A stretch of 29,923 nucleotides of DNA, taken from assembly GCA_023245915.1 (NCBI GenBank), contig JAHFJK010000002.1, forward strand, positions 1-29,923. The letters are read 5' to 3'. Positions 3,117 to 23,931 of the stretch are shown piece after piece. This DNA is from Candidatus Doudnabacteria bacterium. Lineage in GTDB: Bacteria; Patescibacteriota; Doudnabacteria; UBA920. The translations under genes and the position numbers were made by a program. The notes under the pieces were generated by a model, which saw only the letters and a list, made by a program, of their open reading frames with translations, did no database searches and was not told where the DNA came from. How positions within the stretch are numbered: the first letter of the stretch is position 1; each line of letters opens with the position of its first letter.

Positions 3117-3218
3117 TATATCGAATCAACGAACCAGATGAATCTACGAAGGTCTACAAATTAACGAATTCGTAACTTCGTAGTTATTCGTTGATTCGTT
3201 CTATTCGTAGATTCTATA
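3117..3218. repeat. Periodic-arm imperfect palindrome (ACGAA/TTCGT core)
   Basis: GAATCAACGAA 3123-3133 pairs with TTCGTTGATTC 3187-3197; GAATCTACGAA 3140-3150 pairs with TTCGTAGATTC 3204-3214. Confidence 0.8.
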
Positions 3219-3235
3219 TATTTTTACGATTAATC

Positions 3236-3277
3236 AGTATAAAACATTTTACTTTATTGGTCAATCCACACTATAAT
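3236..3277. promoter_or_regulatory. Overlapping divergent sigma70-type promoters (DHH-like gene / tsaE operon)
   Basis: Minus: TTGACC (3264-3259), 17 bp, TATACT (3241-3236). Plus: TATAAT at 3272-3277, 7 bp before the tsaE ATG. Confidence 0.55.
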
Positions 3278-3284
3278 ACAGGCA

Positions 3285-3701
3285 ATGGACAGCCAAAAGA
3301 CCACTCTTAATGATATCCCAAAACTCGCCAAGCACATCGCAAAAAACCTGCGGGGCGGGGAAATTTTTGCCCTTGTTGGTCAGCTAGGCAGCGGCAAAAC
3401 CACTTTTGTGAAAGCCTTAGGCAAACAACTGAAAATTAAGCACGTAATCCCAAGCCCAACCTTTATTCTTCTGCAGGGGTTTGAAGCTAAAGTTAAAAAC
3501 AGGAAAAAAATTTTGTTTTACCACCTGGATTTATATCGCATCAAAAATTTTAAAGAAGCCAAAGCCTTGGGCCTGACCGAATTCTGGGGCAGACCGGAAA
3601 CCGTTAGCTTAATAGAATGGGCAAATAAAATCAAAACCCATTTACCTAAAAAGACCCGGATAATAAAATTTCAATCACCAGCCAGGCGAAAAAATACATG
3701 A
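3285..3701 (+). CDS. tsaE: tRNA threonylcarbamoyladenosine biosynthesis ATPase
   Basis: GQLGSGKTTF, SPTF, HLDLYR, IEWA motifs; 138 aa. Confidence 0.93.
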   Translation: MDSQKTTLNDIPKLAKHIAKNLRGGEIFALVGQLGSGKTTFVKALGKQLKIKHVIPSPTFILLQGFEAKVKNRKKILFYHLDLYRIKNFKEAKALGLTEFWGRPETVSLIEWANKIKTHLPKKTRIIKFQSPARRKNT

Positions 3702-4924
3702 ATAATATAAAAAAAATCATCTGCATTAGTCCAACCATTTTATTATTTGTGTTCATCATTTACCTCAATCAGCCAGGAAAAGTTTTGGCCGCGTCTGTAG
3801 ATACTTTTTCCTTTAGCTTTGAAGGTCAGAATTATGCTGTCAGCGCAAAAGAACTCTCTGGCTGGCGAGGCAGACAAATTGTCGAATCGGCAAATATTTA
3901 TTCCCCTCCAGCTGAAAATATAGAGACATCTATAAAAAAAATTTTAGGTCAACAAACTTTAATTAAAAAGCCATCTCAAACCTATAATTACACCTTAGCT
4001 CCCATTTATTTATACCTTCAAAACCTGGCCAGCAGCACTATAGACACGCAAATTTCAGAGCCAAAATTAAAAATTGAAAACAATCGGGCAATTGAATTCA
4101 CGCCGCCGCAAAATGGCCGCAAGACCGATGTCTACAAAAACGCCTTAGATGCTCTTGATGCGCTTGAATTACACAAAGAAGGATTAGCACTAACTGTAAT
4201 AGAAACTAAGCCCAACACCAGCCTCGGGCAAAGCAATGACTTGGGCATAAACGAACTGATTGCTCAGGGTGTTTCCAAATTTACAGGTAGCCCAAAAAAC
4301 CGCAGACACAACATTTCTGTGGGAGTCGGAAAATTTAAGGGCTTAATAATTGCCCAGGGGGAAGAGTTCAGTTTTAACAAAAACTTAGGACCAGTAGAGG
4401 AAGAGCAGGGGTTTTTGCCCGAACTGGTTATAAAAAAAGAAGGTACAATTCCGGAATTCGGGGGAGGCTTATGCCAGGTTTCGACCACAACTTTTAGAGG
4501 AGCCATGGAAGCTGGATTGCCAATTACCCAAAGACGCAATCACGCTTACGCGGTTCAGTACTACTCTCCTCAAGGCACCGATGCTACAATTTATCCCGGG
4601 TCTTCTGACTTAAAATTTATTAATGACACGCCCGGAGCAATTTTAATTTGGCCACACATAGAGCCTAAAGAGACTTTAGTTTTTGATTTCTACGGCACTA
4701 AAGACAGCCGGCACGTAACTTTGGAAAAGCCCGTGGTCTATGACAGAAAAGAAGACGGCAGCATGAAAGCCACCTGGACACGGGAAGTGGTTGCGGCTGA
4801 CGGAAAACTGCGAACCGATATTTTCAAATCTATCTACCAATCCCCGGCGCTCTTTCATAAAACCGAACAGTTTGTGAGCAATACTTCTACACCTTCAAGC
4901 CTACAGGCACCAAAAACAAACTAA
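3698..4924 (+). CDS. VanW-family protein with N-terminal membrane anchor
   Basis: RRHNI, GEEFSFN, GGGLCQVSTT, QRRNHAY, DATIY, DLKFINDT motifs. Confidence 0.88.
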   Translation: MNNIKKIICISPTILLFVFIIYLNQPGKVLAASVDTFSFSFEGQNYAVSAKELSGWRGRQIVESANIYSPPAENIETSIKKILGQQTLIKKPSQTYNYTLAPIYLYLQNLASSTIDTQISEPKLKIENNRAIEFTPPQNGRKTDVYKNALDALDALELHKEGLALTVIETKPNTSLGQSNDLGINELIAQGVSKFTGSPKNRRHNISVGVGKFKGLIIAQGEEFSFNKNLGPVEEEQGFLPELVIKKEGTIPEFGGGLCQVSTTTFRGAMEAGLPITQRRNHAYAVQYYSPQGTDATIYPGSSDLKFINDTPGAILIWPHIEPKETLVFDFYGTKDSRHVTLEKPVVYDRKEDGSMKATWTREVVAADGKLRTDIFKSIYQSPALFHKTEQFVSNTSTPSSLQAPKTN

Positions 4925-4933
4925 AAGACTCCT

Positions 4934-5974
4934 ATGATTCAATCAGGCAACGAAAACCTTGCTCCGCTTAAGACCGAAGCGCTGGATGAGGAAGAAATAA
5001 TAATTGAACAGACTTTACGGCCGCAGACGCTTTTGGAATACATTGGCCAGACGGGCGTAAAAAACAATCTCAAGATAATCATCGAAGCCGCAAAAAAACG
5101 CGGCGAGGTCTTGGAGCATTTGCTGTTTTACGGACCGCCGGGTTTGGGCAAAACCACCTTGGCATTTATTGTTGCCAAGGAAATGGGCAGCAACATTAAA
5201 GTCACATCGGGACCCGCGATTGAGAGGGCCGGCGACCTGGCTTCTTTGCTAACCAACTTAAGCGAAGGTGACGTTTTATTTATAGATGAAATTCATCGTT
5301 TGAATAAGGCGGTAGAAGAAGTTTTGTATCCTGCCATGGAAGACCATGTGCTGGATATTATTTTAGGCAAAGGCCCGGGCGCGCGCAGCATTAGAATGGA
5401 GCTGCCAAAGTTTACCCTAATAGGAGCCACAACCAGAATTGGGATGATTTCTTCTCCGCTACGCGACCGTTTTGGCGCCACTTACCGGCTGGAATATTAT
5501 CCGGAAGAAGATTTGCAAATTATTATCAACCGCAACAGCAAAGTTTTAAAAGCCAATGTTGACAAAACTGCCTCCGGAGAGCTTTCCAAACGCAGCCGGT
5601 TTACCCCCCGCATCGCGAATCGATTATTAAAAAGAGTCCGGGATTTTGCCCAGGTCCATGGCCATGATACAATTAATCAAGATATTGCTAAAAAGGCTTT
5701 ACAGCTGTTGGAAATTGACGCGCTTGGCCTTGATAAAAATGACCGACGAATTTTGGAAACCTTAATTAATAAATTTTCCGGCGGCCCAGTGGGGCTTAAC
5801 ACTTTAGCCGCAGCTACTGGTGAAGAAGAAGACACTATTACTGACATTCACGAACCATTTTTAATCCGCTTAGGTCTGTTAGCCAAAACCCCTAAAGGAC
5901 GAGTGGCAACCGAAGCTGCGTATAAACATTTGGATATTGCCCCGCCAAGCTTGGCACAAAAAACCCTGTTGTAA
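4934..5974 (+). CDS. ruvB: Holliday junction branch migration helicase
   Basis: [43 protein letters not shown]. Confidence 0.97.
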
Positions 5975-6072
5975 TTCCAAATATCAAATGTCAAATCAAG
6001 TTTTAAAGTTTCTTAATTTTAAATTCAAACATTTGAGCTTCATTTGAAATTTGTAATTTGATATTTGTCATT
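5973..6072. repeat. Heptamer-periodic palindrome (NNCAAAT)n...(ATTTGNN)n, copy A
   Basis: Three CAAAT heptamers at 5976-5996 and four ATTTG heptamers at 6042-6069; 29 bp (6039-6067) identical to 13655-13683. Confidence 0.85.
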
Positions 6073-6078
6073 ACCTTC

Positions 6079-6291
6079 ATGAACCTCTCCAATCCCGCCA
6101 ATTTACTTATTGCTGTCATCTATTACATCCTTGCCGGTCTTATAAGCTTTTTTTCTATATTCGGAATTTATATTTTAATGCGCTACGGCAAATCCACGCC
6201 TTTTGCTTTAACCGTAGCCTTGCTTTATGGCTTTATTTTTTTAGCTATCTTAAACCAAAGCTATCAAACTCTTCAGTCCATATTAGTATGA
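6079..6291 (+). CDS. Small two-helix membrane protein
   Basis: 70 aa from ATG 6079 with two hydrophobic segments; the longer 6058 start lies inside the repeat. Confidence 0.65.
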   Translation: MNLSNPANLLIAVIYYILAGLISFFSIFGIYILMRYGKSTPFALTVALLYGFIFLAILNQSYQTLQSILV

Positions 6292-6367
6292 GGTTATAAG
6301 TTATGGCGACCGGTAAAGTTGTCAGGCGGCGGTTTTAAGTAACCAATAACTATTATCCATCCAAGCC

Positions 6368-6913
6368 ATGCACAAACTCTTTCCCAGCCAGATGGACGAC
6401 GAAAAAATTTATCTTGTCGTCCGTGAACACTGGTTCCATCTACTTCTAAAAATTCTTATCTGGCTATTTTTTGCCGCTGCTTTAATTGTTTTTAACCGCT
6501 ACGCGCTACCCAAATTACTTGATTTCGCGCCAGCCTGGGCCGGTATTATTAAACTTTTTACAGAAGTTTACACTTTGTTTTTAGCTTTGGCTTTGTTTTT
6601 AATTTTTAATTTCTGGTATTTAAACATCCAAATTATTACCAACATAAGAGTAGTAGACGTTGACCAAGAAGGACTATTTTTTCATGTTGTCTCTGAATTG
6701 CATATAGACAAAATAGAAGATGTCACCAGTCAGGTTGGGGGCATTTTTGGCACAATTTTTAATTATGGCGACGTATTGGTCCAAACCGCGGGCACAGTTG
6801 AACGCTTTGAATTCCCCAATGTGCCTAACCCGGCCGCCATTGAAAAATTGATTTTAGACCTATACGAAGAACACTCTAATTTATCTAAAGTCGGAAAAGG
6901 GACAAATCCATGA
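6368..6913 (+). CDS. Membrane protein with bacterial PH domain (bPH_2/YdbS-like)
   Basis: Two TM helices then IITNIRVVD, IEDV, GGIFGTIFNYGDV-VQTAG, F-NVPNP. Confidence 0.8.
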   Translation: MHKLFPSQMDDEKIYLVVREHWFHLLLKILIWLFFAAALIVFNRYALPKLLDFAPAWAGIIKLFTEVYTLFLALALFLIFNFWYLNIQIITNIRVVDVDQEGLFFHVVSELHIDKIEDVTSQVGGIFGTIFNYGDVLVQTAGTVERFEFPNVPNPAAIEKLILDLYEEHSNLSKVGKGTNP

Positions 6914-7356
6914 AAGTTGTTGCCATATCTGGCGGCTTTGACCCCATCCACATTGGCCATATCAGACTGCTAAAAGCAGCCAAAGCTTTAGGAGACAAAC
7001 TGATTGTTATATTAAATAACGATAATTGGTTGGCAGTAAAAAAAGGATTTGCATTCATGCCCGAGCAGGAGCGTAAAGAAGTTCTGTTAGCCATGCAATA
7101 CGTTGATGAAGTGGTTATTACTAGCCACCCAAACAATCCGACCGACATGTCAGTTTGCAAAGAACTGGAACAGTTAAAACCCGACATTTTTGCCAACGGG
7201 GGCGATAGAAAACCCGATGCAGATCCAGTCCCTGAAGTCGAATTATGCAACCGGCTTGGAATTGAACTTGTCTACAATGTCGGCGGCGAAAAAGCCCAAA
7301 GTTCCAGCCAACTGGTGCACAAAGCCTTGGGCCTTAAAAGCAAATCGCTAAAATAA
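6910..7356 (+). CDS. Cytidylyltransferase-like nucleotidyltransferase (TagD/RfaE-II/RibL type)
   Basis: GGFDPIHIGH HxGH motif, ERKEVL, ANGGDR, terminal SSS; overlaps the upstream stop (ATGA). Confidence 0.85.
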   Translation: MKVVAISGGFDPIHIGHIRLLKAAKALGDKLIVILNNDNWLAVKKGFAFMPEQERKEVLLAMQYVDEVVITSHPNNPTDMSVCKELEQLKPDIFANGGDRKPDADPVPEVELCNRLGIELVYNVGGEKAQSSSQLVHKALGLKSKSLK

Positions 7357-7372
7357 TTTTTTGGGGAAACTA

Positions 7373-7396
7373 AAACTCCGGCGCAGACCGGAGTTT
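7373..7396. terminator. Bidirectional terminator between convergent genes
   Basis: AAACTCCGG-CGCAGA-CCGGAGTTT. Confidence 0.65.
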
Positions 7397-8125
7397 AAAT
7401 TTGGGATAAAATCGCAAGGCTGGCTAAAACAGCGGTTTCGGCCCGCAGCAGAATGGGGCCGAGGGAGAGAGTTTGCAGATTTGGCAACGATTTAAATTTG
7501 TCAATTTCTTCGCTTGTGAAACCGCCTTCGGGACCAACTATGATTGAACAAGATTTAAAAGCTTGATCAAGATTGACAAGAATCTTTATGGGTTCACCTG
7601 AAATATCAGCCAACAAAATTTTATCGTAAAATTTCATCAGCTCAATCGCCTGAGCTAAATTAGAAACAAAAACCAAACTCGGCCAAACCGCCCGTTCGCA
7701 TTATTTTGCTGCTTCAATTAAAATTTTATTCCAACGTTGTTGCTTTTTCTGGAACTGATCAGCAGATAGTTTCGTGGCGGTATTTTTGGAATTGAATAAA
7801 ACAATTTTACCCAAGCCCAGCTCCGTGCCTTTTTGAAAAATAAAGTCTTAAGCTTTTTCCGAAACTACGGATTGAAATAAAGTTATTGAAATTAACGGTT
7901 CTGTAGGTACTGCTATTTGCTCAAGCGGTTTGACGGTCAATGAATCTTTATTAATATCCATAATCCATAATATCAACTGGATATCTTTCCCTGTCTGGCC
8001 CCTGGACTTTTATCTGTTCTCCTTTTTTTATTCTGCGCGACAACAAAAATATGTCCCGCTTCGGGCGGGACAATTTCAAATATCTGATTAAGCTTTAGAT
8101 TTTGGTCAGAAAGGAAATACGGCAT
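7395..8125 (-). pseudogene. rsmE: 16S rRNA m3U1498 methyltransferase pseudogene with four lesions
   Basis: Removing +1 nt in the A5 run (8045-8049) and a 7-bp duplication (7956-7969), and reading through TAAs at 7848-7850 and 7701-7703, gives 241 codons with QKGTELG, EAAK*CER, VGPEGGF and LGPILLRAETA motifs. Confidence 0.9.
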
Positions 8126-8130
8126 CTAAT

Positions 8131-8442
8131 TCAAACCTGAATGTAAATAGCATAAACAATCTGCCTGCCCAATACCTGATTTAAAGCGCTGATTATTCTG
8201 TGAGCCAATAACTTTAATTTGTTGGCCAACTCCTTAGACAGGCAGGCAATGATAAGTACGCCTTTTTTAAAATCAACGGCTTGTGTCTGCTCACCGGCTT
8301 CTTCTACAAAAGAGCCGGAAAGCTGCTGCCAGGCTTTTAAGGCTTTATGGCGATGATAAGCGTTTTCTAAATTGTATTGTTTGGCGGTGTGCCTAATTAA
8401 GTTGTCGATTTTGGAAAAGCCTTTGTATTGATTTCTTTGCAT
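8131..8442 (-). CDS. dciA: DciA (DUF721) family helicase-loading protein
   Basis: 103 aa with W--L, G-L-I-C-S...A--L pattern; directly downstream of recF as in dnaA-dnaN-recF-DUF721 clusters. Confidence 0.75.
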   Translation of the reverse strand: MQRNQYKGFSKIDNLIRHTAKQYNLENAYHRHKALKAWQQLSGSFVEEAGEQTQAVDFKKGVLIIACLSKELANKLKLLAHRIISALNQVLGRQIVYAIYIQV

Positions 8443-8460
8443 ATAAAATCTTTATATCTT

Positions 8461-8628
8461 TCAAAATTTCCGCATTGAGCCGAGTACGAGGCAAAATGCG
8501 AGGATATTTGGAGACGTAGTAGAACTACGGCGACAAACACCACAGCATTTTAACGAAGTAATCGGCCAAAGCCGCTTTGCAAGTCCGACTTGACGTCGGA
8601 CTAAAAAGCGGCGGTGCGGAAATTTTGA
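8461..8628. mobile_element. 168-bp MITE-like or structured element with perfect 14-bp terminal inverted repeats
   Basis: TCAAAATTTCCGCA (8461-8474) and TGCGGAAATTTTGA (8615-8628), with several nested internal stems. Confidence 0.65.
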
Positions 8629-8629
8629 T

Positions 8630-9739
8630 TTAGCCTTCAACTTCTTCCTCTTCTTCTACTTCAGCAGGAGTAAGCGTAATGTGTTGGGCCGGCATTTCCA
8701 ACGGGTAAGTGGTGGTTATAAAAACCTGAAATTTACCTTGTAAATATTTAAGCAGGAAAGTTCTTCTGGTTTCATCGAGTTCTGAAAGCACATCGTCGAG
8801 CAATAATATCGGCTTGTCATCTCCGTGGCTCAAATATTCCATTTCCAATATTTTTAATGCCAGTACCTGGCTTCTGAGTTCGCCCCTCGAGGAAAAGGGC
8901 GAAAGGTAAAGTCCGTCGCTTTTTAAGAAAAAGTCGTCGCGATGCGGACCTACCAGACAGGCTGCCAAAAGCGCTTCCTTTTTTGCAGCGTTGGCCAGCT
9001 TAAGTCTGAAGTTTTCGGCAATTTCTTCCAGGGTGTTGCCTTCCAGGCCTTCATAGGTAACTTCCACCGGGCGGTGGAAACCGGAAATGGTCGTATAAAT
9101 TTCCGCAATACTGGTGTTTAAAAAATTAATAAACTTCTTTCTCTCTAAAATTATGTAGCTGCCCAAATTTACCAGCTGCTCATTCCAGGAAGCCAGGTCT
9201 TCTCCCTGGCTTTTACCAATTTTCATGTCATTGAGTACACGATTTTTTTGGAATAAAACTTTTTTATAATTAGAAAGAGCGTCCAAATATTCCAAATTAC
9301 TTTGGGAGAGCACCATGTTTAAATATTTCCGGCGTTGTTCCGGGGTTTTGGTGAACATGTCAACATCTGTCGGGTCAAAAATTACCACACTTAAAAACCC
9401 CTGGGCTTCCCGGCGTTTCTTTTTTACCCCGTCAATAAAAAAATTAGCATAAATTTTTTCCCGCTTTTCCAAAAATACTTCCAAGCTATGTTCCTGGCTG
9501 TCTTTTTCCAAAGTCAGCTTTAATTCCAAATTGCCGCAATTTTGTAAAAAGATATATTCATTGTCATCGCGAAAAGATTTAAACAGCGAGGCAAAGTAAA
9601 CCGATTCCAAAAGATTAGTTTTGCCTACCGCATTGGGGCCGGTTAAGACCACGGTATCGTTGTTAATTTTTAAATCCAGCTCCGGATAATTACGAAAGTT
9701 TTTGACTTGTATATTTTTAATGCGCATTTTATTGTCCAT
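8630..9739 (-). CDS. recF: DNA replication and repair protein RecF
   Basis: GPNAVGKTN Walker A, SFR, GPHRDD, SRGE signature, LLLDDVLSELD; alternative start at 9727. Confidence 0.95.
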   Translation of the reverse strand: MDNKMRIKNIQVKNFRNYPELDLKINNDTVVLTGPNAVGKTNLLESVYFASLFKSFRDDNEYIFLQNCGNLELKLTLEKDSQEHSLEVFLEKREKIYANFFIDGVKKKRREAQGFLSVVIFDPTDVDMFTKTPEQRRKYLNMVLSQSNLEYLDALSNYKKVLFQKNRVLNDMKIGKSQGEDLASWNEQLVNLGSYIILERKKFINFLNTSIAEIYTTISGFHRPVEVTYEGLEGNTLEEIAENFRLKLANAAKKEALLAACLVGPHRDDFFLKSDGLYLSPFSSRGELRSQVLALKILEMEYLSHGDDKPILLLDDVLSELDETRRTFLLKYLQGKFQVFITTTYPLEMPAQHITLTPAEVEEEEEVEG

Positions 9740-9810
9740 GAATCACTAATAGCACGAATGACACAAACCAACTATTGGTGTAATTAGTGTCGATTCGTGA
9801 TTGGTGGATA
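9738..9810. repeat. Periodic-arm palindrome (CACGAAT/ATTCGTG core)
   Basis: CACGAAT 9753-9759 with ATTCGTG 9793-9799; CACTAAT 9744-9750 with ATTAGTG 9783-9789. Confidence 0.6.
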
Positions 9811-9811
9811 A

Positions 9812-10912
9812 TTAACTTTTTATTGGCATGACAAGATAAGTATAATCGTTTGTCTCTTCTGGTACAAGTAAACAAGGCGAGCTGTCATCTATGGTTTTTA
9901 TAATAACGTTTTTGGAATCAATACTGCTTAAAGCATCCAACAAGTAATGGTAATTTAAAATCAAAGATACTTCCCCGCCTTCGGCTTTGGCTGCAAGCTC
10001 AACCTGACTTTTGCCTAAATCTGAAGATTCAGCGGTTAACACCAGCTGCTGCTTGACCGGAAGAATTTGAGCCTTGACGCTGTTGTTGTTTTGACTGAAA
10101 ACCGAAACTGTTCTTAGGGCATTAATTAAAGAAGTTTTTTCTGTAGCTAAATTGGTGGAAAAGCTGGTTGGAATGATTTGTTGATAATCCGGATACTGGC
10201 CATCGACTAAACGGCTGATAATTTGGGTTTCGTTAAAGTTAATTGAGCATTGGTTTTGGGAAAAAACCATTTCAACATTGCCTTTTTGATTGCCAATTAT
10301 TCTGGATAGTTCAGCAATGGTTCTTTGTGGTACAATAACTTCTTGCGAACTTGGAGGTTTTTGGGCTAAAACCATTTTTTTTTCTGCCAACCTGTAGCGG
10401 TCTGTGGCAACAATTCTCAACCCTTTATCATCCCAGGCAAATAAAACTCCGGAAATTTCTGGTTGTGTTTGGTTTGTGGAAGCTGCAAAAAACACCTGGT
10501 CAACCGCCTGTTTTAAATCCTGGGAGTTTAAAACTAAGGTTGTGCCGTTTTCCACACTAGGGATAATTGGGAACTCCTCTGGGGGCAGGGTTTTAATTTT
10601 GTTATGGTGGTTGTCGGTTTCAATAAACAATTCGTTTTCTTTGCCCTCTAAAATAATGTTTTGGTTGGGTAGGCTGTTAATCAGATCACTAAAAGTCTTA
10701 CTTATAACCGTAACCGCCCCCTCCTCTTCGGTTTTGCATCTGGTGTTGGTAATAATAGCTATTTCTAAATTAGTCGAGGAAATTTTTAAGGTTCCGTTTT
10801 CAGTTTTTAAAAGCAGGTTGTTTAAAATTGGTAAGGTGTTGGATGAAGATATGATTCTTCCAACTATTACCAGTCCGGCTTTTAGGTTTTCCTGGGTGCA
10901 TATTACTTTCAT
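9812..10912 (-). CDS. dnaN: DNA polymerase III beta clamp
   Basis: Likely start MKVICTQENL at 10912 (366 aa); LPILNN, STNLE, ATDRYRL, SRLVDGQYPDY, YLVMP. Confidence 0.96.
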   Translation of the reverse strand: MKVICTQENLKAGLVIVGRIISSSNTLPILNNLLLKTENGTLKISSTNLEIAIITNTRCKTEEEGAVTVISKTFSDLINSLPNQNIILEGKENELFIETDNHHNKIKTLPPEEFPIIPSVENGTTLVLNSQDLKQAVDQVFFAASTNQTQPEISGVLFAWDDKGLRIVATDRYRLAEKKMVLAQKPPSSQEVIVPQRTIAELSRIIGNQKGNVEMVFSQNQCSINFNETQIISRLVDGQYPDYQQIIPTSFSTNLATEKTSLINALRTVSVFSQNNNSVKAQILPVKQQLVLTAESSDLGKSQVELAAKAEGGEVSLILNYHYLLDALSSIDSKNVIIKTIDDSSPCLLVPEETNDYTYLVMPIKS

Positions 10913-11070
10913 AAAAGTTTTTAAATATTTTAATAATAAGCTGGGTGGATATGTGGAAACAAAAAAAACCTTAATAGAAACAACAATTTCATCAAAATTA
11001 ACTGTGGAATAAATGAGGGGAAAAACCACACTAAGCTTAGCAAGAGAAATAAATTTTTACCAATCCACAA
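10913..11070 (-). promoter_or_regulatory. oriC: Candidate oriC unwinding region between dnaA and dnaN
   Basis: DnaA-box-like 9-mers at 11069-11061, 11011-11003, 10960-10952 and 10952-10944, then CAGC, TTATTATTA and an AT-only tract. Confidence 0.7.
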
Positions 11071-12420
11071 CTATACAAACAGTTTATTCAGAATTAAATC
11101 CATTTCTTGTTTAAAAGATTCCTTTGCAGAAACCAAACCTTGAATTTTGTCCACAGCGTGCATTACTGTGGTGTGGTCACGCCCACCAAAAAATTCACCT
11201 ATAGAAGGAAAGGAGTTGTCCAGCTCTTTTCTTATCAAGTACATAGCTATTTGTCTGGGTTTAACATATTCTTTTTTCCTTGACTGTTTGATTAAATCTT
11301 CCATATTGATATTGTAAAATTCAGCGACCATCTCGGCGATTTTTTTGACTGAAGTTACGCGTTTTTTGGCACTGACAATACCGGCTAAGATTATTTTTGC
11401 TTGGTCAAGCGTCAGGCTTTTGTTTTCCATTTGCTGGTAAACAACCAGCTTGTTTAATGCTCCTTCCAGTTCGCGGATGTTATTAATAACGTTTTCGGCA
11501 ATGTAAAATAAAATTTCATCACTAATATTAACCGCCCTTTTTTCCATTTTGGTTCTAAGGATAGCCAGGCGGGTTTCTAAGTCCGGTGATTGGATGTCAG
11601 CGACCATTCCCCATTCAAAACGGGAAACTAAACGCTGCTCTACTGCCGGGATTTCTTTTGGCGGGCGGTCAGAAGTTATAATAATTTGTTTGCCTTTGTC
11701 ACGCAGTTCGTTAAAGGTGTGGAAAAATTCTTCCTGAAAGCCTTCTTTGCCCGCCATAAATTGAATATCATCAATTAACAGGGCATCGGCGCTGCGGTAT
11801 TGCTTTTTAAAATCGTCCATGCGTTTTTGTTTGATGGCATCAATGTAGTCATTGGCAAATTTTTCGCTGGTAATATACAAAACTTTAATTTTAGCATTGT
11901 TCAAAAGGAGTTTGTGGCCGGCGGCATGCATAAGATGGGTTTTGCCCAAGCCGACTCCGCCGTAAATAAACAGCGGATTGTACTGGACGCCGGGATTTTT
12001 TGCCACTGCCTGGCTGGAAGCATGGGCCAATTCATTATTTTTGCCAATAATGAAAGTTTCAAAAGTATATTTTGGATTTAATCCCGTTGTGCTGGATATA
12101 GCAGCCGCCGAAAAGTTTGGTGTGTCGGTGGCAGTTTTAGACCCCGGGCGGCTTGAGGTTTGAGTTGGTACTAGCATGCCACCCAAACGATATTTAATTT
12201 CTTTAATTTCCGGCGCTAAAGTTTTAAGGGCTTTAAGCATTTCTGTATGATATTTATTTGCAATCCAGTCACGCGAAAATGCGCTGGGCACGCCGACCAA
12301 AATAAAATCACCTCCACGCTCTAAAATGCCGGTATTTTTAAACCAGGTGTTAAAGTTAGCTTTGCTTAAGGAAACTTCTAAACTGCCTAAAATTGCCTGC
12401 CAAAGTTGTTGATTGTTCAT
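11071..12420 (-). CDS. dnaA: Chromosomal replication initiator
   Basis: Likely start MNNQQLWQ at 12420 (449 aa); YNPLFIYGGVGLGKTHL, LLIDDIQF, NIRELEGAL, GGRDHTTVMHA. Confidence 0.98.
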   Translation of the reverse strand: MNNQQLWQAILGSLEVSLSKANFNTWFKNTGILERGGDFILVGVPSAFSRDWIANKYHTEMLKALKTLAPEIKEIKYRLGGMLVPTQTSSRPGSKTATDTPNFSAAAISSTTGLNPKYTFETFIIGKNNELAHASSQAVAKNPGVQYNPLFIYGGVGLGKTHLMHAAGHKLLLNNAKIKVLYITSEKFANDYIDAIKQKRMDDFKKQYRSADALLIDDIQFMAGKEGFQEEFFHTFNELRDKGKQIIITSDRPPKEIPAVEQRLVSRFEWGMVADIQSPDLETRLAILRTKMEKRAVNISDEILFYIAENVINNIRELEGALNKLVVYQQMENKSLTLDQAKIILAGIVSAKKRVTSVKKIAEMVAEFYNINMEDLIKQSRKKEYVKPRQIAMYLIRKELDNSFPSIGEFFGGRDHTTVMHAVDKIQGLVSAKESFKQEMDLILNKLFV

Positions 12421-12423
12421 ATA

Positions 12424-12518
12424 TTCCACAGATACGCCGATTGCACAGATGACACAGATGATGACAAATCTCACTTTAAGAATCTGTGCAGTCAGCAGTT
12501 ATCAGTGTATCTGTGGAG
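12424..12518. repeat. Periodic-arm palindrome (CACAGAT/ATCTGTG core) in the dnaA 5' region
   Basis: CCACAGATA 12426-12434 with TATCTGTGG 12508-12516; GCACAGAT 12443-12450 with ATCTGTGC 12482-12489. Confidence 0.75.
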
Positions 12519-12534
12519 GTATTCTAACAAGCAG

Positions 12535-12611
12535 TTATCAACATGTAAACCAATCAAAAACCCGCTTATCTGAAAGTTAATTTAATTTTGCTGTGAATAT
12601 GTTGTGGAAAA
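12535..12611. promoter_or_regulatory. DnaA-box cluster upstream of dnaA
   Basis: TTTTCCACA consensus match on minus 12611-12603; one-mismatch boxes TTATCAACA 12535-12543 and ATATTCACA on minus 12600-12592. Confidence 0.6.
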
Positions 12612-12642
12612 AATGTGGCCAAATTAAAATGAGATTTTATAA

Positions 12643-12671: not shown

Positions 12672-12752
12672 CTTAAGTACATCTAAATGGACCAGTCAAG
12701 CGAATTTGCCAAGGTCTATTAAATTTACTAATTTGTAGATTCTATATATTCA

Positions 12753-12887
12753 ATGAAAAGAACCTATCAACCAAAAAAAATTAGAAGAGCCAGGCGCCAC
12801 GGTTTTTTTAAACGCATGCAAACCAAAACCGGTAGAAATGTTTTGGCTAGAAGAAGGGCAAAAGGACGCAAGCGTTTAAGCGTATAA
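12753..12887 (+). CDS. rpmH: 50S ribosomal protein L34 (below the ORF-track size cutoff)
   Basis: [44 protein letters not shown], 44 aa. Confidence 0.97.
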
Positions 12888-12965
12888 TATCTACAGATAT
12901 CTTTAATATCTATAAATATCTTAAAAAGATATTGCTTGATATTAGTTGATGTTTATAGATATTAT
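12886..12965. repeat. Periodic-arm palindrome (ATATCT/AGATAT core)
   Basis: Four ATATCT units; AATATCTATAAA 12905-12916 with TTTATAGATATT 12952-12963. Confidence 0.7.
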
Positions 12966-13312: not shown

Positions 13313-13585
13313 ATGAAGAAAATTTTAAATAAAATCTCTAAAATCAATAAATGTCTACTAATCGTTTTAATAGATATTTATCAGCAAACACTTTCCCCAG
13401 ACCACAGCTGGCTTTCTGCAAAATATCCATATGGTTTTTGCCGTCATTATCCTTCTTGCAGTGAGTATGCTAAGCAGGCAATATTGAAATTCGGGATTGT
13501 GAAAGGCGGATGGCTGTCTGCTAAACGATTGTTAAAATGCCACCCCTGGGCAGAGCCTAAGGTCGATTTGGTCCCTGTAAAATAA
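13313..13585 (+). CDS. yidD: Membrane protein insertion efficiency factor
   Basis: YQQTLSP, CRHYPSCSEYA, RLLKCHPW. Confidence 0.92.
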   Translation: MKKILNKISKINKCLLIVLIDIYQQTLSPDHSWLSAKYPYGFCRHYPSCSEYAKQAILKFGIVKGGWLSAKRLLKCHPWAEPKVDLVPVK

Positions 13586-13688
13586 TTCCAAATTACAAAT
13601 GTCAAATATCAAATCAATTTATAATTTAAAAATTTCAAACTTTGCCATTTAATATTCATTTGAAATTTGTAATTTGATATTTGAAATT
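13584..13688. repeat. Heptamer-periodic palindrome (NNCAAAT)n...(ATTTGNN)n, copy B
   Basis: Four CAAAT heptamers 13587-13614 and four ATTTG heptamers 13658-13685; starts at the yidD stop as copy A starts at the ruvB stop. Confidence 0.85.
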
Positions 13689-13691
13689 CTT

Positions 13692-14500: not shown

Positions 14501-14504
14501 GCGC

Positions 14505-15017
14505 ATGACTGACTATAATAAGATTGAAAAGGTAAAACAAATAATAAATGAAATTTTACAACATGCGGGCATTTCAGGCAGCGTGGAATTTGAAGAAAGC
14601 CTTACTAAGGGCCTGGTTTTTAATATTGCTTCGCCCGATTCTTATCTTTTAATAGGCAGACAGGGCGGCACTTTGCATGCTCTGCAGATTTTGGTGCAGG
14701 CCTTGGCCGCTAAACATTTGCAATCGCAAGAACCATTTTGGTTTAGTTTGGATGTGGATGATTACAAAAGAAAACGCGAATGGTTTTTAAAAGAAACAGC
14801 CAAGGCAGCAGTAGAAAAATTAAAAATGACCGGCCGCGCACAAGCGCTTGAGCCCATGCCGAATTACGAACGCCGCCTAGTCCACGCCTACCTTCAGGAA
14901 CATCACCCGGAAGTGGAAAGCTCAAGTATAGATTACGATCCTTACAGGAGAGTGGTTATAAAGTTAAAAAGGGAGATATCTGTTTATAGATCTTACCTTT
15001 CCAACCCCTCACAGTGA
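14505..15017 (+). CDS. jag: Jag/KhpB (KH + R3H) RNA-binding protein
   Basis: LIGRQGGTLHALQ KH motif, LDVDDY, PMPNYERRLVH R3H motif; downstream of yidC. Confidence 0.88.
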   Translation: MTDYNKIEKVKQIINEILQHAGISGSVEFEESLTKGLVFNIASPDSYLLIGRQGGTLHALQILVQALAAKHLQSQEPFWFSLDVDDYKRKREWFLKETAKAAVEKLKMTGRAQALEPMPNYERRLVHAYLQEHHPEVESSSIDYDPYRRVVIKLKREISVYRSYLSNPSQ

Positions 15018-17532: not shown

Positions 17533-17560
17533 AAAACTGTCACAGTAAAGACAGTTTTTT
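17531..17560. terminator. Bidirectional terminator between toxin and ligase genes
   Basis: AAAAAACTGTC-8nt-GACAGTTTTTT, 11-bp perfect stem. Confidence 0.7.
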
Positions 17561-18833
17561 ATATTGATAACGACAAAACCATCCAAAACACCATTGCCAA
17601 ATCGTTTTTAAAATAGGGGTTGTCAATAAGGCCTTGGAAGAGGAGGCAGATGAGGAAGAGGGCGACAGCCAACTTTATGTCATTCCCGCGAAAGCCTGCC
17701 TTGCCGGCAGGCAGGCGGGAATCTAGATTGTGGATTCCGGCTAGCCCTTCGCCGCTTCGCGGCTCCGTGGCTGCCGGAATGACACTGGGGCGGAGGCCGC
17801 GATAAATATAAATTGATATTAATCCCAAGAAACTAATTAGACCTAACAAGCCCGTTTCTACCCAAAAATTTAAAAATACGTTATGCGGAAAGTTGTGAGT
17901 ATCTAAATTGGGGTCAGTGTTTAGCTTTTGCCAGTTATTACCAAAGCCTGTTAAGCCTAATCCAAAAATTGGCGACTCTTTTATAGCTTTAACGCCTGTG
18001 TGCCAAAGCGAAAGGCGAGAGATGGCAGATTTTTCCCCATAAAAGGGAAGGACAAAGCGCCAGCGAAGATTGGGGACGGAAATTATAACAATAACCATAA
18101 CAATAACGGCGGCGAAGATCAGTTTGCGGATTTTGGCTTCAGCAGCCACAATCAAATAAATTCCAATAGCTGCGGCCAGCCCTAAGAAACCGGCGCGGGA
18201 AAAGGAAAGGAGCAGGCCGAGCGCGCCTAAGGCCCAGGCGAGGGATTTTAGATTTAAGATTTTAGATTTAAGATTTTCAAAAACGTCGGGAATCAATAAT
18301 GCCAAAAGCGGGGCTGACCAAAGGGCGTAAAAATTCGGATGTGCAAAAAAACTCAACGCGCGTTTTGGCTCGTTGGCATTGCCCCAATAAATTTGCGGAA
18401 GGCCGAGTAAAGTGAAATATTGCAGTATTGCGTAAAGACCAGCTAAAGCTAGTAAGTAGTAAGTAGTAAGTAGTAAGTAACTTTTGCTTTGCGGATGTTG
18501 CTCAAAGAAAAATTTGCCAATGAAAAAAATCGAAATCGGTTGAAGAAACAAAACAATAAATTGTCCCAACTTTGCCTGGTCGAAGCCTTTGATGAATAAA
18601 CTGATTATTCCAGAGATGAAGAAAAAGCCGACTGTTAGTAAAATCTCTTTGCGAATATTTTTGACGGCCGTCAAAAATATTCGCGCCCGTTTTTTTGCGA
18701 TGACATTAACCACAAATGCTATCCAAACCAAAAATACCCACATCATCAGAATATTTCTGGGAAGAAAACCCAAGTTAAACCGAATGGCATAAGCCGGAGC
18801 CAGAATAAAAGTTATAATAAGCAGGTAAAGCAT
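17559..18833 (-). CDS. O-antigen ligase-like (WaaL/Wzy_C) membrane protein with in-frame repeat insertions
   Basis: ~12 TM segments, RA--FF-HPN, LSFSRAG, R--LW--G, P-FG-G, PHN-FL-FW-E-GL-G, F------ND motifs. Confidence 0.88.
   Translation of the reverse strand: MLYLLIITFILAPAYAIRFNLGFLPRNILMMWVFLVWIAFVVNVIAKKRARIFLTAVKNIRKEILLTVGFFFISGIISLFIKGFDQAKLGQFIVLFLQPISIFFIGKFFFEQHPQSKSYLLLTTYYLLALAGLYAILQYFTLLGLPQIYWGNANEPKRALSFFAHPNFYALWSAPLLALLIPDVFENLKSKILNLKSLAWALGALGLLLSFSRAGFLGLAAAIGIYLIVAAEAKIRKLIFAAVIVMVIVIISVPNLRWRFVLPFYGEKSAISRLSLWHTGVKAIKESPIFGLGLTGFGNNWQKLNTDPNLDTHNFPHNVFLNFWVETGLLGLISFLGLISIYIYRGLRPSVIPAATEPRSGEGLAGIHNLDSRLPAGKAGFRGNDIKLAVALFLICLLFQGLIDNPYFKNDLAMVFWMVLSLSI
17678..17784. 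repeat. CGTC-type REP/RPE-like palindromic element inserted in frame in the ligase gene
   Basis: Terminal IR TGTCATTCC/GGAATGACA; translates as VIPAATEPRSGEGLAGIHNLDSRLPAGKAGFRGND. Confidence 0.85.
18245..18279. repeat. Heptamer-periodic tract inside the ligase CDS
   Basis: ATTTTAG ATTTAAG ATTTTAG ATTTAAG ATTTTCA; encodes ENLKSKILNLKS. Confidence 0.8.
18450..18479. repeat. (TAGTAAG)4 simple sequence repeat inside the ligase CDS
   Basis: Four perfect heptamers at 18450-18477; encodes YLLLTTYYL. Confidence 0.9.
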
Positions 18834-21668: not shown

Positions 21669-21688
21669 CCTGCCTGCCGGCAGGCAGG
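21669..21688. repeat. Perfect 20-bp micro-palindrome in the tyrS leader
   Basis: CCTGCCTGCCGGCAGGCAGG; variants at 17695-17715 and 23898-23913. Confidence 0.85.
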
Positions 21689-22891: not shown

Positions 22892-22895
22892 ATTA

Positions 22896-22920
22896 AAACC
22901 CCCTCTTTGCGAGGGGGTTT
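22896..22920. terminator. Bidirectional terminator after tyrS
   Basis: AAACCCCCTC-TTTGC-GAGGGGGTTT. Confidence 0.75.
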
Positions 22921-22966
22921 CTCTTTTAGCCTGAGTTGAGCGTTTATCCGCGACAAATCGGCGGAT

Positions 22967-23092
22967 TTACATAGCGCCGCCACTCATACCTTCACCACTT
23001 TTATCCTCATCTTCGTCAGAAGCAGGCGTAGAGGGCTCTGCCGCGGTTCCGCCGCCCATGCTGCCGTCGGCAGGCATATCGTCAAAAAACAT
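22967..23092 (-). CDS. 41-aa acidic Gly/Ser-rich small protein (below the ORF-track size cutoff)
   Basis: MFFDDMPADGSMGGGTAAEPSTPASDEDEDKSGEGMSGGAM; SD-like AGAAAGGA upstream, promoter TTGCGT-17-TATAAT (23322-23294) and downstream hairpins. Confidence 0.55.
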   Translation of the reverse strand: MFFDDMPADGSMGGGTAAEPSTPASDEDEDKSGEGMSGGAM

Positions 23093-23307
23093 TTTTGTTA
23101 TCCTTTCTCGGGTCAATCGCTCTCTCTTCGTTCGTCTAGATTATCATCTAGACTCACTTTGTTTCGAGCATTGCCCCTCTCCCCAAATTTTCCTTGTATA
23201 AACCCCAACTGAAAATTTGGGATCCCCTGAAAATTTATGTTGAGGAGTTAGTGTTAAATTTACAGAATTTACCTATATAAATTCTATTTTCAGATTATAG
23301 CAAGTCC

Positions 23308-23802
23308 TTATTGTATACGCAAGCTTGTATGAAAGTGGTGCATGGTACATACGGCAATAGCTAAAGCGTCGGCGGCATCGTCGGGCTGGGGCGCAGATTT
23401 TAGTTTGAAAGTTTTTTTAATAATGTATTGGACTTGTTCCTTGGTTGCTTTGCCATAACCGCAAATGAAATTTTTGACTTGCAAGGGTGTGAATTCAAAA
23501 ATCGGCAGTTTGTTGGTTTGGCAAACCAAAAGCGCCACTCCCCTGGCCTGCGAGACCGTCATGACGGTTTTTTGGTTGGTAGTTAGAAAAAGTTTTTCCA
23601 CTCCTACAGCGTCCGGCCTAAACTTTTTTATTATTTGATTTAAATCCTCTGCCAAAATTTCCAGCCGTTGGGCATGGGATAAAACTTTTTTGGTCGCGAT
23701 AATTCCAAAGTCTTCGAGCAGGTACTCGTCTGCCCGTTTTGTGGATTTAATAATTCCGTATCCGGTTGTCGCGGTTCCGGGATCAATTCCCAATATAACC
23801 AT
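23308..23802 (-). CDS. ruvC: Holliday junction resolvase
   Basis: LGIDPG, VEKLF, QARGV, FTPLQVK, GYG-ATKEQV, PDDAADALAIA. Confidence 0.96.
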   Translation of the reverse strand: MVILGIDPGTATTGYGIIKSTKRADEYLLEDFGIIATKKVLSHAQRLEILAEDLNQIIKKFRPDAVGVEKLFLTTNQKTVMTVSQARGVALLVCQTNKLPIFEFTPLQVKNFICGYGKATKEQVQYIIKKTFKLKSAPQPDDAADALAIAVCTMHHFHTSLRIQ

Positions 23803-23807
23803 AAAAG

Positions 23808-23931
23808 AAATCCTAAATCCTAGAACCTAAAAACTAAACAAAGTTGAAATTCTAAAGGTTTAAATTTTTAAACTTTAATTTTATAGAGTTTGTTTAGCCT
23901 GCCTGCCGGCAGGGCTTTAGTCTTTAGATTT
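23808..23931. repeat. Heptamer-periodic palindrome (CTAA/TTAG core) with a nested CCTGCC micro-palindrome
   Basis: ATCCTAA ATCCTAG AACCTAA AAACTAA left arm; TTTGTTTAG-[23898-23913]-GCTTTAG TCTTTAG right arm. Confidence 0.7.

What the first reader, a model, noticed from the sequence alone, without database searches (positions are those of the whole stretch)
3117..23931. One architecture, many sequences: periodic-arm hairpins fill intergenic gaps
At least seven spacers share a design: a left arm of short tandem units, an AT-rich loop, and a right arm of reverse-complement units. The cores differ: CAAAT/ATTTG (5973-6072 and 13584-13688, period 7, 29 bp identical), CTAA/TTAG (23808-23931, period 7), ACGAA/TTCGT (3117-3218), CACGAAT (9738-9810), CACAGAT (12424-12518) and ATATCT (12886-12965). 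Several begin right at a stop codon within operons. A shared shape with divergent cores suggests an unrecognised class of non-autonomous elements or structure-defined RNA-processing or protein-binding sites. Possible autonomous partners are small genes (four-helix-bundle or GxxExxY type) sitting in such loops elsewhere; this rests on my recollection, not on this window.
Basis: partly seen in the sequence, partly recalled or inferred. Interest (0 to 1): 0.72.

Follow-up and report, generated by a model that had tools for sequence, protein, structure and literature searches.

The report
Ribosomal-RNA-type hairpin elements between genes
The gaps between genes of this tiny groundwater bacterium (Candidatus Doudnabacteria) hold long hairpins with repeat-built arms. 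They belong to the same repeat families that interrupt its own 23S ribosomal RNA gene and that bracket two kinds of small genes, which links three features so far described separately.

Summary
All seven hairpins are real (fold z -2.2 to -6.5). Genome-wide, long hairpins exceed composition-matched shuffles about 75-fold in intergenic windows (299 vs 4).

They are not one-off structures. Five of the seven belong to dispersed families of 80-170 bp with full-length homology.
- The CAAAT family (two window copies) has the same arms as a cassette carrying a PF05635 "23S rRNA intervening-sequence" four-helix-bundle gene.
- The CACGAAT copy links, through sister copies, to a PF13366 (GxxExxY nuclease) cassette.
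- The CTAAA and CACAGAT copies match inserts inside this genome's own 23S rRNA gene, which also holds hairpins at the classical helix-25 and helix-45 sites.

Orthologous spacers in 17 same-genus species are mostly empty (3-30 nt) or hold a different family, so these are insertions with turnover, not conserved regulators.

Best reading: gene-less intervening-sequence-type palindromic elements living in mRNA spacers. Their stems are probably cut by RNase III. That step is inferred, not shown, and the mobilising enzyme is unknown.

This scan made the cassette link earlier in other genomes. I found no paper describing it. Verdict: new variant of a known kind.

The parts
3109..3221 (.). CGAAT-family palindromic element (113 nt, units of about 8 nt) between divergent genes 1959-3110(-) and tsaE 3285-3701(+)
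   Evidence: Fold z -5.4. Scan score 39. TRF period 8. Seven genome copies align over their full length with shared ends AATATATCGAAT / ATTCGATATATT. No cassette or rRNA partner found.
5971..6074 (.). CAAAT-family element (period 7). It spans the upstream TAA stop and ends 5 nt before the ATG at 6080.
   Evidence: Fold z -5.6. TRF period 7. Clusters with five other hairpins and both arms of the PF05635 cassette C100:6280-6760. 96.7% identity over 30 nt to a hairpin inserted at the helix-25 site of the 23S rRNA of relative G017.
9728..9815 (.). CACGAAT/CACTAAT-family hairpin that exactly fills the 72-nt gap between two minus-strand genes (stop at 9812, start at 9739)
   Evidence: Fold z -3.8. 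Copies at C102 (89.7% over 39 nt) and C53. The C53 copy matches both flanks of the PF13366 cassette C30:8434-8814 (94% over 36 nt and 89% over 44 nt).
12420..12520 (.). CACAGAT-family hairpin directly upstream of dnaA (start at 12421, minus strand)
   Evidence: Fold z -5.2. TRF period 9. 86.5% over 37 nt to the hairpin inserted in this genome's own 23S rRNA at C34:3644-3731. A hairpin built from the same words sits at the helix-25 site of relative G012.
12884..12965 (.). ATATCT hairpin (units of 9-10 nt) filling the rpmH-rnpA spacer
   Evidence: Fold z -6.5. TRF period 9-10. Only weak relatives, on contig C20. The orthologous spacer is 4-26 nt in most relatives and holds other families in four of them.
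13581..13691 (.). CAAAT-family element (period 7) filling the yidD-yidC spacer
   Evidence: Weakest fold, z -2.2. Scan score 40. 100% over 31 nt to the C100 cassette arm. Full-length copies at 74-82% identity in all 19 genomes of the genus. The orthologous spacer is 3-30 nt in 14 of the 15 same-genus relatives where it could be measured.
23800..23935 (.). CTAAA-family element (period 7) filling the gap between two minus-strand genes. A GC-rich micro-palindrome is nested at about 23896-23915.
   Evidence: Fold z -3.8. Aligns over its full length with six other copies; only this copy carries the 18-nt insert. 89.5% over 38 nt to the 173-nt hairpin inserted in the own 23S rRNA at C34:1632-1804.
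24648..24681 (.). Solo (unpaired) array of TAGGAAT units in a 24-nt spacer, running into the 3' end of the adjacent gene. Same word as the arms of PF05635 cassette C71.
   Evidence: TRF period 7, 4.3 copies. Sequence read. C71 cassette arms.

Best explanation
The window's hairpins are gene-less members of several families of small palindromic repeat elements. Each is 80-170 bp, with arms made of 3-5 degenerate units of 7-10 nt.

In this Doudnabacteria genome the same families occur in three settings:
1. alone in spacers between protein genes;
2. as the two arms around a small gene, either a PF05635 four-helix-bundle '23S rRNA intervening-sequence protein' or a PF13366 GxxExxY PD-(D/E)XK nuclease;
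3. as intervening sequences at helix tips of the genome's own 23S rRNA gene.

At the DNA level they behave as insertions with turnover. Sites are empty in sister species, or hold a different family.

Inferred, not shown: at the RNA level the two arms pair into a long stem, which RNase III cuts or removes, as has been shown for 23S intervening sequences in other bacteria. That would make an insertion harmless both in rRNA and between the cistrons of an operon.

The enzyme that copies the elements is unknown. The cassette proteins are the candidates, because arms and gene travel together and the arm words are conserved far better than silent sites.
For: **Shown here**
- Real and non-random.
- Dispersed families with full-length homology and defined ends.
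- The CAAAT family is present in all 19 species of the genus at 74-82% identity.
- Seven PF05635 genes, each directly bracketed by inverted periodic arms. The same holds for 31 of 31 cassettes examined across the genus.
- Nine PF13366 genes, at least three with clearly periodic arms.
- Gene-less CAAAT elements align to cassette C100 minus its ORF. For example, C110 maps to cassette 6285-6339 plus 6695-6753, while the ORF is 6332-6697.
- Contig C34:26-3944 is the 23S rRNA gene. It carries five gene-less periodic hairpins and one PF05635 cassette. At the same rRNA sites, relatives have native loops of 4-28 nt or hairpins of other families.
- Window copies match the rRNA inserts at 86-97% over 30-38 nt.
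- In the Rfam alignment one insert lies in the hairpin at model positions 572-600. I recognise this, and the insert at C34:2250-2374, as the helix-25 and helix-45 intervening-sequence sites. That recognition is from my knowledge of the E. coli sequence.
- Empty orthologous spacers, and different families at the same spacer.
- CAAAT arms bracket one PF05635 subfamily (67-80% amino-acid identity) in five species, in two different gene neighbourhoods.
- Those arms are about 80% identical between species, against 45% at third codon positions of the enclosed gene.
- The PF05635 genes have dN/dS of 0.05-0.07.
- An RNase III gene is present.

**From papers**
- The Coxiella intervening sequence is an S23p ORF in the loop of a 28-bp terminal stem that RNase III cuts in vitro, and S23p is a homopentamer (PMC4990558).
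- CPR rRNA genes hold many short uncharacterised inserts at known intervening-sequence sites, and some inserts encode 23S_rRNA_IVP (PMC11270868).
Against: - There is no RNA evidence. No RNA run holds this organism, and the runs that do hold it are contigs, which say nothing on ends or on presence/absence variants.
- Hairpins are equally stable as sense and antisense RNA (55 vs 57 of 121, p=0.67). So nothing points to selection on the transcript rather than on the DNA.
- Within families, a left arm pairs as well with the right arm of another copy as with its own. There is therefore no copy-specific compensatory change.
- No target-site duplication and no recognised transposase.
- No reverse transcriptase was found in this 93.5%-complete genome.
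- Two window elements have no cassette or rRNA partner.
- Most close PF05635 pairs sit at orthologous loci, so much of the protein-arm association is vertical inheritance.
- The arm-identity figure is inflated somewhat by the low complexity of the arms.
Confidence: 0.68

Rival explanations
1. The arms are first of all arrays of protein-binding words. Each cassette protein (a PF05635 pentamer or a GxxExxY nuclease) recognises its own 7-nt word, repeated 3-5 times in inverted arrays. On this view the hairpin potential is a by-product, and the gene-less copies are binding sites, decoys or regulatory sites. This overlaps with the best explanation rather than excluding it.
For: - Arm words are conserved across species far better than silent sites.
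- One protein subfamily goes with one arm word in five species and in two genomic contexts.
- There is no copy-specific pairing constraint and no strand asymmetry.
- Solo unpaired arms exist.
- PDB relatives 2GSC and 2RLD have five chains each. S23p is a homopentamer (PMC4990558). PF05635 resembles the nucleic-acid-handling Avd protein of diversity-generating retroelements (PMC10053308).
Against: - No binding data.
- Three families with several copies (CTAAA, CGAAT, ATATCT) have no cognate gene in this assembly.
- Binding sites would not need to sit at rRNA helix tips.
- The paired layout is the rule: 44 periodic hairpins in the genome.
Confidence: 0.15
2. The hairpins grew in place by replication slippage of short tandem repeats, with hairpin-templated correction, like STRR or microsatellite tracts. 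On this view they are not mobile and not related between loci.
For: - Heptamer repeats are over-represented in many bacteria, and slippage has been proposed as the cause (PMC4692102).
- Unit number varies between copies.
Against: - Copies at unrelated loci align over their full length, including loops and non-repeat ends.
- The same family appears in rRNA helices, in gene spacers and around genes.
- Full-length copies at 74-82% identity are found in all 19 species.
- Units are degenerate (77-91% matches), not fresh perfect arrays.
Confidence: 0.05
3. They are locus-specific regulatory RNA structures, such as terminators, attenuators, mRNA stabilisers or devices that occlude the translation start, kept because each one tunes its own operon.
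For: - They start at stop codons and end just before start codons.
- 35 of 42 periodic hairpins lie between co-directional genes.
- REP elements are known to stabilise upstream mRNA (from my own knowledge, not checked here).
Against: - They are not conserved at orthologous sites. The yidD-yidC spacer is empty in 14 of the 15 same-genus relatives where it could be measured, and the rpmH-rnpA spacer is empty or filled by four different families.
- No sense-strand bias and no orientation bias.
- The stems are AT-rich and 30-50 bp long, not GC-rich stems followed by a U tract.
- The same elements sit inside rRNA.
Confidence: 0.07
4. They are REP/BIME-type elements mobilised by a RAYT (IS200-like Y1 transposase).
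For: - One Y1_Tnp match in the genome, at C75:14228-14626 (28.7 bits).
- They are intergenic, palindromic and multi-copy.
Against: - There is a single weak Y1 gene, and its flanks are GC-rich and unrelated to any periodic family.
- More than ten different arm families would need more than ten specificities.
- The elements are 80-170 bp with periodic arms, not 20-40-nt REPs with a conserved GTAG head.
Confidence: 0.05

Closest known systems
Intervening sequences (IVS) of 23S rRNA, with or without the S23p/PF05635 ORF (Coxiella burnetii, Leptospira, Salmonella; PMC4990558)
   Same: - Complementary termini form a long stem.
- An optional small four-helix-bundle ORF sits in the loop.
- They sit at helix tips, including the helix-25 and helix-45 sites.
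- Their distribution is sporadic, with empty sites in relatives.
- The host has RNase III.
- In this genome the very same repeat families are inserted in the 23S gene.
   Different: - Known intervening sequences are described only inside rRNA genes. Here most copies lie in spacers between protein genes.
- The arms are built of periodic 7-10-nt units.
- There are many sequence families per genome.
- A second cargo type exists, the PF13366 nuclease.
- Excision by RNase III is not shown for this organism.
Short uncharacterised insertion sequences (<200-250 bp) in rRNA genes of CPR bacteria (Tsurumaki et al. 2024, PMC11270868)
   Same: Same phylum-level group. Same kind of short, ORF-less rRNA inserts at sites that match known intervening-sequence sites. 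23S_rRNA_IVP ORFs were detected in some of those inserts.
   Different: In the passages my term search returned, that study surveys rRNA genes only. It reports neither the periodic-arm hairpin design nor the same elements between protein genes or around PF13366 genes.
Intergenic heptamer repeats: GGGAATC of Xanthomonas (70-75 inverted pairs per genome) and GGGGAYT of Nostoc (Rehm et al. 2015, PMC4692102); STRR heptanucleotides of heterocystous cyanobacteria
   Same: Tandem 7-nt units in intergenic DNA, often as two convergent arrays that could form a stem-loop. Length and sequence vary between close relatives.
   Different: Those are essentially one G-rich word per genome, read as G-quadruplex formers, with no partner gene proposed. 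Here there are more than ten AT-rich words per genome, the units are degenerate, and the arms are tied to cassette genes and rRNA inserts.
REP/BIME, ERIC and MITE-type bacterial intergenic palindromic repeats
   Same: Small, non-coding, palindromic, multi-copy, placed between genes of operons, present or absent between relatives.
   Different: No RAYT or DDE transposase partner. No target-site duplication seen. Periodic arms. Gene-bearing relatives carry a four-helix-bundle protein or a small PD-(D/E)XK nuclease.

Membership tests
23S rRNA intervening-sequence (IVS) type element | Complementary termini that form an extended stem-loop | tested here: met
   Folds with z -2.2 to -6.5. Arms of 24-57 nt at 71-94% complementarity.
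23S rRNA intervening-sequence (IVS) type element | Located at helix tips of the 23S rRNA gene (classically helices 25 and 45) | tested here: inconclusive
   The window copies are in mRNA spacers, not in rRNA. Members of the same families (CTAAA and CACAGAT in this genome; CAAAT in relative G017) are inserted at 23S helix tips. The feature is therefore met for the families and not for the window copies.
23S rRNA intervening-sequence (IVS) type element | Excised from the transcript by RNase III without re-ligation | not testable with these tools
   An RNase III gene is present at C104:3863-4249. No RNA run holds this organism.
23S rRNA intervening-sequence (IVS) type element | Sporadic presence: relatives have the uninterrupted site | tested here: met
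   rRNA sites: 4-28 nt native loops in relatives against 74-173 nt here. Gene spacers: 3-30 nt against 88-106 nt.
23S rRNA intervening-sequence (IVS) type element | Some members carry an S23p/PF05635 ORF in the loop | tested here: met
   Seven PF05635 genes are bracketed by periodic arms. One of them lies inside the 23S gene at C34:1069-1493.
REP/BIME with RAYT | A cognate Y1 (IS200-like) transposase gene flanked by the repeats | tested here: not met
   Only one weak Y1_Tnp match (28.7 bits), and its flanks are unrelated GC-rich sequence.
MITE | Terminal inverted repeats plus a target-site duplication and a related transposase-encoding parent element | tested here: not met
   Defined inverted ends exist. 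No duplication is visible at the family ends, and the gene-bearing relatives encode PF05635 or PF13366, not a transposase.
STRR / heptamer simple-sequence repeats | Head-to-tail arrays of a 7-nt unit in intergenic DNA | tested here: met
   TRF period 7 at 5978-5996, 6042-6067, 13658-13688 and 23808-23831. Genome-wide arm periods are mostly 7-9.
STRR / heptamer simple-sequence repeats | Arrays arise locally by slippage, so loci are not homologous outside the unit | tested here: not met
   Copies align over loops and non-repeat ends. Full-length copies occur in 19 species.
Intrinsic (Rho-independent) terminator | A short GC-rich stem followed by a U tract at the end of a transcription unit | tested here: not met
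   The stems are AT-rich and 30-50 bp long. Most lie between co-directional genes such as yidD-yidC and rpmH-rnpA. They are not conserved in relatives.

The most novel reading that the evidence does not exclude
Gene plus arms form a new kind of mobile cassette. Its protein (a PF05635 pentamer, or a GxxExxY nuclease) recognises its own tandem word array and copies or maintains both full and gene-less versions. RNase III removal of the stem keeps every insertion silent, whether it lands in rRNA or between cistrons. If so, 23S intervening sequences, the uncharacterised PF05635 and PF13366 families, and the long-unexplained bacterial heptamer repeats (STRR, Xanthomonas GGGAATC) would be parts of one system.
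Probability: 0.3. Interest if true: 0.85.

Novelty: new variant of a known kind. Interest (0 to 1): 0.66.

Why it matters
Three features have been treated as separate oddities:
- intervening sequences of 23S rRNA;
- two widespread small protein families of unknown role (PF05635, related to the Avd protein of diversity-generating retroelements, and the PF13366 GxxExxY nucleases);
- intergenic heptamer repeats.

In this one small genome the same repeat families connect all three, with clean empty-site controls in sister species. That gives PF05635 and PF13366 concrete candidate nucleic-acid partners that can be tested at the bench. It also offers a reason why such inserts are tolerated in essential operons and in a single-copy rRNA gene.

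There is a practical side too. These elements break assemblies and lengthen spacers in CPR genomes, so annotators should expect them.

Tried and rejected
- **Sense vs antisense RNA stability.** No bias (55 vs 57 of 121 hairpins between co-directional genes). It gives no support for selection at the transcript level.
- **Orientation of family words relative to transcription.** No consistent bias, and the numbers are small.
- **Own-arm vs cross-copy complementarity.** No difference, so no compensatory covariation to report.
- **Protein identity vs arm-word sharing across 31 cassettes.** Mantel r=0.18, with 8 of 2000 permutations as high. I do not lean on it, because the closest pairs are orthologous loci.
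- **Deriving loops of gene-less copies from the cassette ORF.** The cheap-gap alignment scattered short fragments through the ORF and is over-fitted. Only the arm matches are used.
- **Reverse transcriptase as an Avd-type partner.** None found.
- **RAYT.** One weak, unrelated hit.
- **Laying public runs on 2900-14600.** Contigs only. They show contig breaks and pile-ups at the repeats, but no presence/absence variants.
- **No RNA run holds the organism**.
- **DnaA-box reading of 12424-12518.** The units match TTATCCACA at only 5-7 of 9 positions by eye, and the hairpin has a relative inside the 23S gene. I reject it as the main reading, although oriC probably lies next to it.
- **Shine-Dalgarno occlusion.** By eye, neither the filled nor the empty spacers show a clear SD motif, so this was not pursued.
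- **Window elements 3109-3221 and 12884-12965.** No match to any cassette flank or rRNA insert at E<=0.001.

Full report
**1. What is there**

The window is a whole 29.9-kb contig (C5) of a 1.06-Mb, 110-contig, 42% GC genome. Close YidC relatives are named Candidatus Doudnabacteria (Patescibacteria/CPR), and the DNA comes from a groundwater metagenome.

They fold much better than dinucleotide shuffles, with z from -2.2 to -6.5; the weakest is 13578-13692.

Tandem Repeats Finder confirms period 7 for the CAAAT and CTAAA arms, period 8 for the CGAAT arm, and 9-10 for the CACAGAT and ATATCT arms. The CACGAAT hairpin has only loose units.

Five of the seven begin on or beside a stop codon and end 4-11 nt before the next start codon.

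**2. More than chance, genome-wide**

I ran a Smith-Waterman hairpin scan of my own: 200-nt windows, step 50, each window also shuffled with its dinucleotides preserved.

- All windows, score >=30: 648 real against 19 shuffled. Score >=36: 237 against 0.
- Windows at most half coding: 299 against 4.
- After merging there are 261 hairpins. Of these, 171 are under 30% coding, although crude ORFs cover 85% of the genome.
- Of 121 intergenic hairpins with arms of 24 nt or more, 44 have significant arm periodicity, mainly at 7, 8 and 9 nt.
- The periodic hairpins lie a median 4 and 6 nt from the flanking ORFs. Two thirds fill the gap, and 35 of 42 lie between co-directional genes.

**3. They are families, not lone structures**

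I clustered the hairpins with blastn-short and aligned three of the families that include window copies (CTAAA, CGAAT, CACGAAT). The families are dispersed, copies are homologous over their whole length including loops, and the ends are defined. For example, the seven CGAAT copies share the ends AATATATCGAAT / ATTCGATATATT.

| Window element | Family | Copies found in this genome |
|---|---|---|
| 5971-6074 and 13581-13691 | CAAAT | 6 hairpins |
| 23800-23935 | CTAAA | 8 in cluster; window copy aligns |
| 3109-3221 | CGAAT | 7 |
| 9728-9815 | CACGAAT/CACTAAT | 3 |
| 12420-12520 | CACAGAT | weak relatives only |
| 12884-12965 | ATATCT | weak relatives only |

The CAAAT element has full-length copies at 74-82% identity in all 19 genomes of the genus, with copy numbers that differ widely. 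Many solo arms also exist.

**4. Gene-bearing relatives**

The notes of this scan gave me the accession PF05635, and I tested the link here.

- The genome has seven PF05635 genes above the Pfam cut-off. Every one is directly bracketed by inverted periodic arms.
- The C100 cassette has the CAAAT arms: 100% identity over 26-31 nt to the window copies.
- Gene-less CAAAT elements align to the cassette on both sides of the ORF and not to the ORF itself.
- An independent scan for ORFs with inverted flanks (32 real against 5 control at score >=28) also found PF13366 'GxxExxY' PD-(D/E)XK nucleases with periodic arms. It found DUF559 and GIY-YIG nucleases too, but with GC-rich, non-periodic arms.
- There are nine PF13366 genes. 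The arms of the C30 copy belong to the family of the window's CACGAAT hairpin, linked through the C53 and C102 copies.
- Across the genus every genome has 3-12 PF05635 genes. All 31 cassettes I examined have inverted periodic arms.
- The proteins are under strong purifying selection, with dN/dS 0.05-0.07.
- PDB relatives are 2GSC and 2RLD, with five chains each. S23p is reported to be a homopentamer (PMC4990558), and PF05635 is reported to resemble Avd of diversity-generating retroelements (PMC10053308).

**5. The same families interrupt the 23S rRNA gene**

Contig C34:26-3944 is the 23S rRNA gene. It matches model positions 15-2044 spread over 3919 nt.

I compared it with the 23S genes of the genus. 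This genome has five gene-less periodic hairpins (74-173 nt), one PF05635 cassette (425 nt) and one 780-nt insert. At those same sites relatives have native loops of 4-28 nt. Some relatives instead carry a hairpin of another family at the same site:
- G017 has a CAAAT hairpin at the site I read as helix 25.
- G012 has a CACAGAT-type hairpin at that same site.
- G018 has a CGAAA hairpin at the site I read as helix 45.

The window's CTAAA element matches the own-rRNA insert C34:1632-1804 (89.5% over 38 nt). The CACAGAT element matches C34:3644-3731 (86.5% over 37 nt). The CAAAT elements match the G017 rRNA insert (96.7% over 30-31 nt).

In the Rfam alignment the insert C34:3066-3145 sits in the loop of the hairpin at model positions 572-600. 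From the flanking sequence I recognise this as helix 25, and the insert C34:2250-2374 as helix 45. These are the two classical intervening-sequence sites. That assignment rests on my knowledge of the E. coli 23S sequence.

A survey of CPR rRNA genes reports many short uncharacterised inserts at such sites, and 23S_rRNA_IVP ORFs in some of them. The passages my term search returned deal with rRNA genes only, and I did not read the whole paper (PMC11270868).

**6. Insertion and turnover, not conserved function**

I compared orthologous spacers in the 17 same-genus species that had a YidC match; YidC identity is 70-81%.

- yidD-yidC: 106 nt here. It is 3-30 nt in 14 of the 15 relatives where it could be measured. 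One of those (G018, locus L021) keeps what looks like a right arm only.
- rpmH-rnpA: 88 nt here and 4-26 nt in most. Four species have it filled with hairpins of families different from the window's (the two CGAAA fillers look related).

**7. Gene and arms travel together**

CAAAT arms bracket one PF05635 subfamily (67-80% amino-acid identity) in five species, in two different gene neighbourhoods.

The arms are about 80% identical between species, against 45% at third codon positions of the enclosed gene. Low complexity inflates the first figure somewhat, but identical runs of 21-29 nt are shared between species.

**8. How it most likely works**

Shown:
- dispersed families;
- gene-bearing and gene-less forms;
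- presence in rRNA helices and in mRNA spacers;
- empty sites in relatives;
- conserved arms;
- an RNase III gene in the genome.

Inferred: the arms pair in the transcript and RNase III cuts the stem, as shown in vitro for the Coxiella intervening sequence and reported for other bacteria (PMC4990558). This would explain why the inserts are tolerated in a 23S gene and in essential operons.

Unknown: what copies the elements. I found no reverse transcriptase, and the only Y1 transposase match is weak and unrelated.

Tests that could have shown selection at the RNA level gave nothing:
- strand asymmetry;
- orientation bias;
- copy-specific compensation between arms.

A DNA-level or protein-binding role for the words therefore stays open.

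**9. Novelty**

The following are described in the papers I found:
- inverted pairs of heptamer repeats in Xanthomonas (PMC4692102);
- intervening sequences with S23p (PMC4990558);
- short rRNA inserts in CPR (PMC11270868).

In seven full-text searches I found no paper that ties intergenic periodic hairpins to PF05635 or PF13366 cassettes, or to rRNA intervening sequences.

This scan has made the cassette link before in other genomes. It also provides clean empty-site controls.

I rate the finding a new variant of a known kind, with interest 0.66.

Noticed in passing
window 23896-23915 and 21669-21688; at least 12 other loci (e.g. C57:14223-14244, C95:12790-12811): An 18-nt GC-rich micro-palindrome (CCTGCCTGCCGGCAGGGC) is a dispersed element of its own. 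In the window it is nested inside the right arm of the CTAAA element. A different small GC palindrome is nested in the C55 copy of the CGAAT family.
   Followed up: partly
G000 contigs C88:9122-9283, C78:11-186, C1:16-179 and about 13 more: A non-periodic palindromic repeat of about 160 bp, starting GGGACTGTTGCCGAATG, has at least 16 copies. Several lie inside crude ORF calls. A second such family (GGCAAAAATAACTTCC) has 7 copies.
   Followed up: no
L149 (G000:C34) 121-900: The 23S rRNA gene also carries a 780-nt insert holding a 183-aa ORF (C34:191-742, minus strand). Relatives have 0, 248, 408 or 736 nt at this site. It is probably an intron or homing-endonuclease type insert, not a periodic hairpin.
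   Followed up: no
G000 C107:1924-2289, C24:4670-5017, C75:15983-16273, C60:12470-12760: Small DUF559 (Vsr-like) and GIY-YIG nuclease genes are also bracketed by inverted repeats, but these are GC-rich and non-periodic (CCCCTCCCC..., TGTCATTCCGAGC...).
   Followed up: partly
G000 C11:2258-2923 and C74:6620-7135: Two genes with a PaaX_M / Cas2-like domain are each flanked on both sides by a strong palindrome (e.g. GTACAAAGTTTCAGAT...).
   Followed up: no
window 12521-12752: The divergent dnaA-rpmH spacer next to the CACAGAT hairpin holds DnaA-box-like 9-mers (TTATCAACA, and TTTTCCACA on the other strand). It is probably the replication origin.
   Followed up: no
window 3271-3287: A TATAAT lies 8 nt before the ATG of tsaE (3285), which suggests a leaderless mRNA.
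   Followed up: no
window 18244-18277 and 18450-18479: Two period-7 tandem tracts lie inside a coding sequence (17559-18833, minus strand): GATTTAA x4.7 and a perfect TAGTAAG x4.3. Another note of this scan reads them as phase-variation tracts.
   Followed up: no
window 3158-3182 and 13659-13687: In the source run's contigs, depth piles up over the CGAAT element (up to 85 against about 8), and contigs break inside the CAAAT element. Both fit multi-copy repeats that fragment the assembly.
   Followed up: partly
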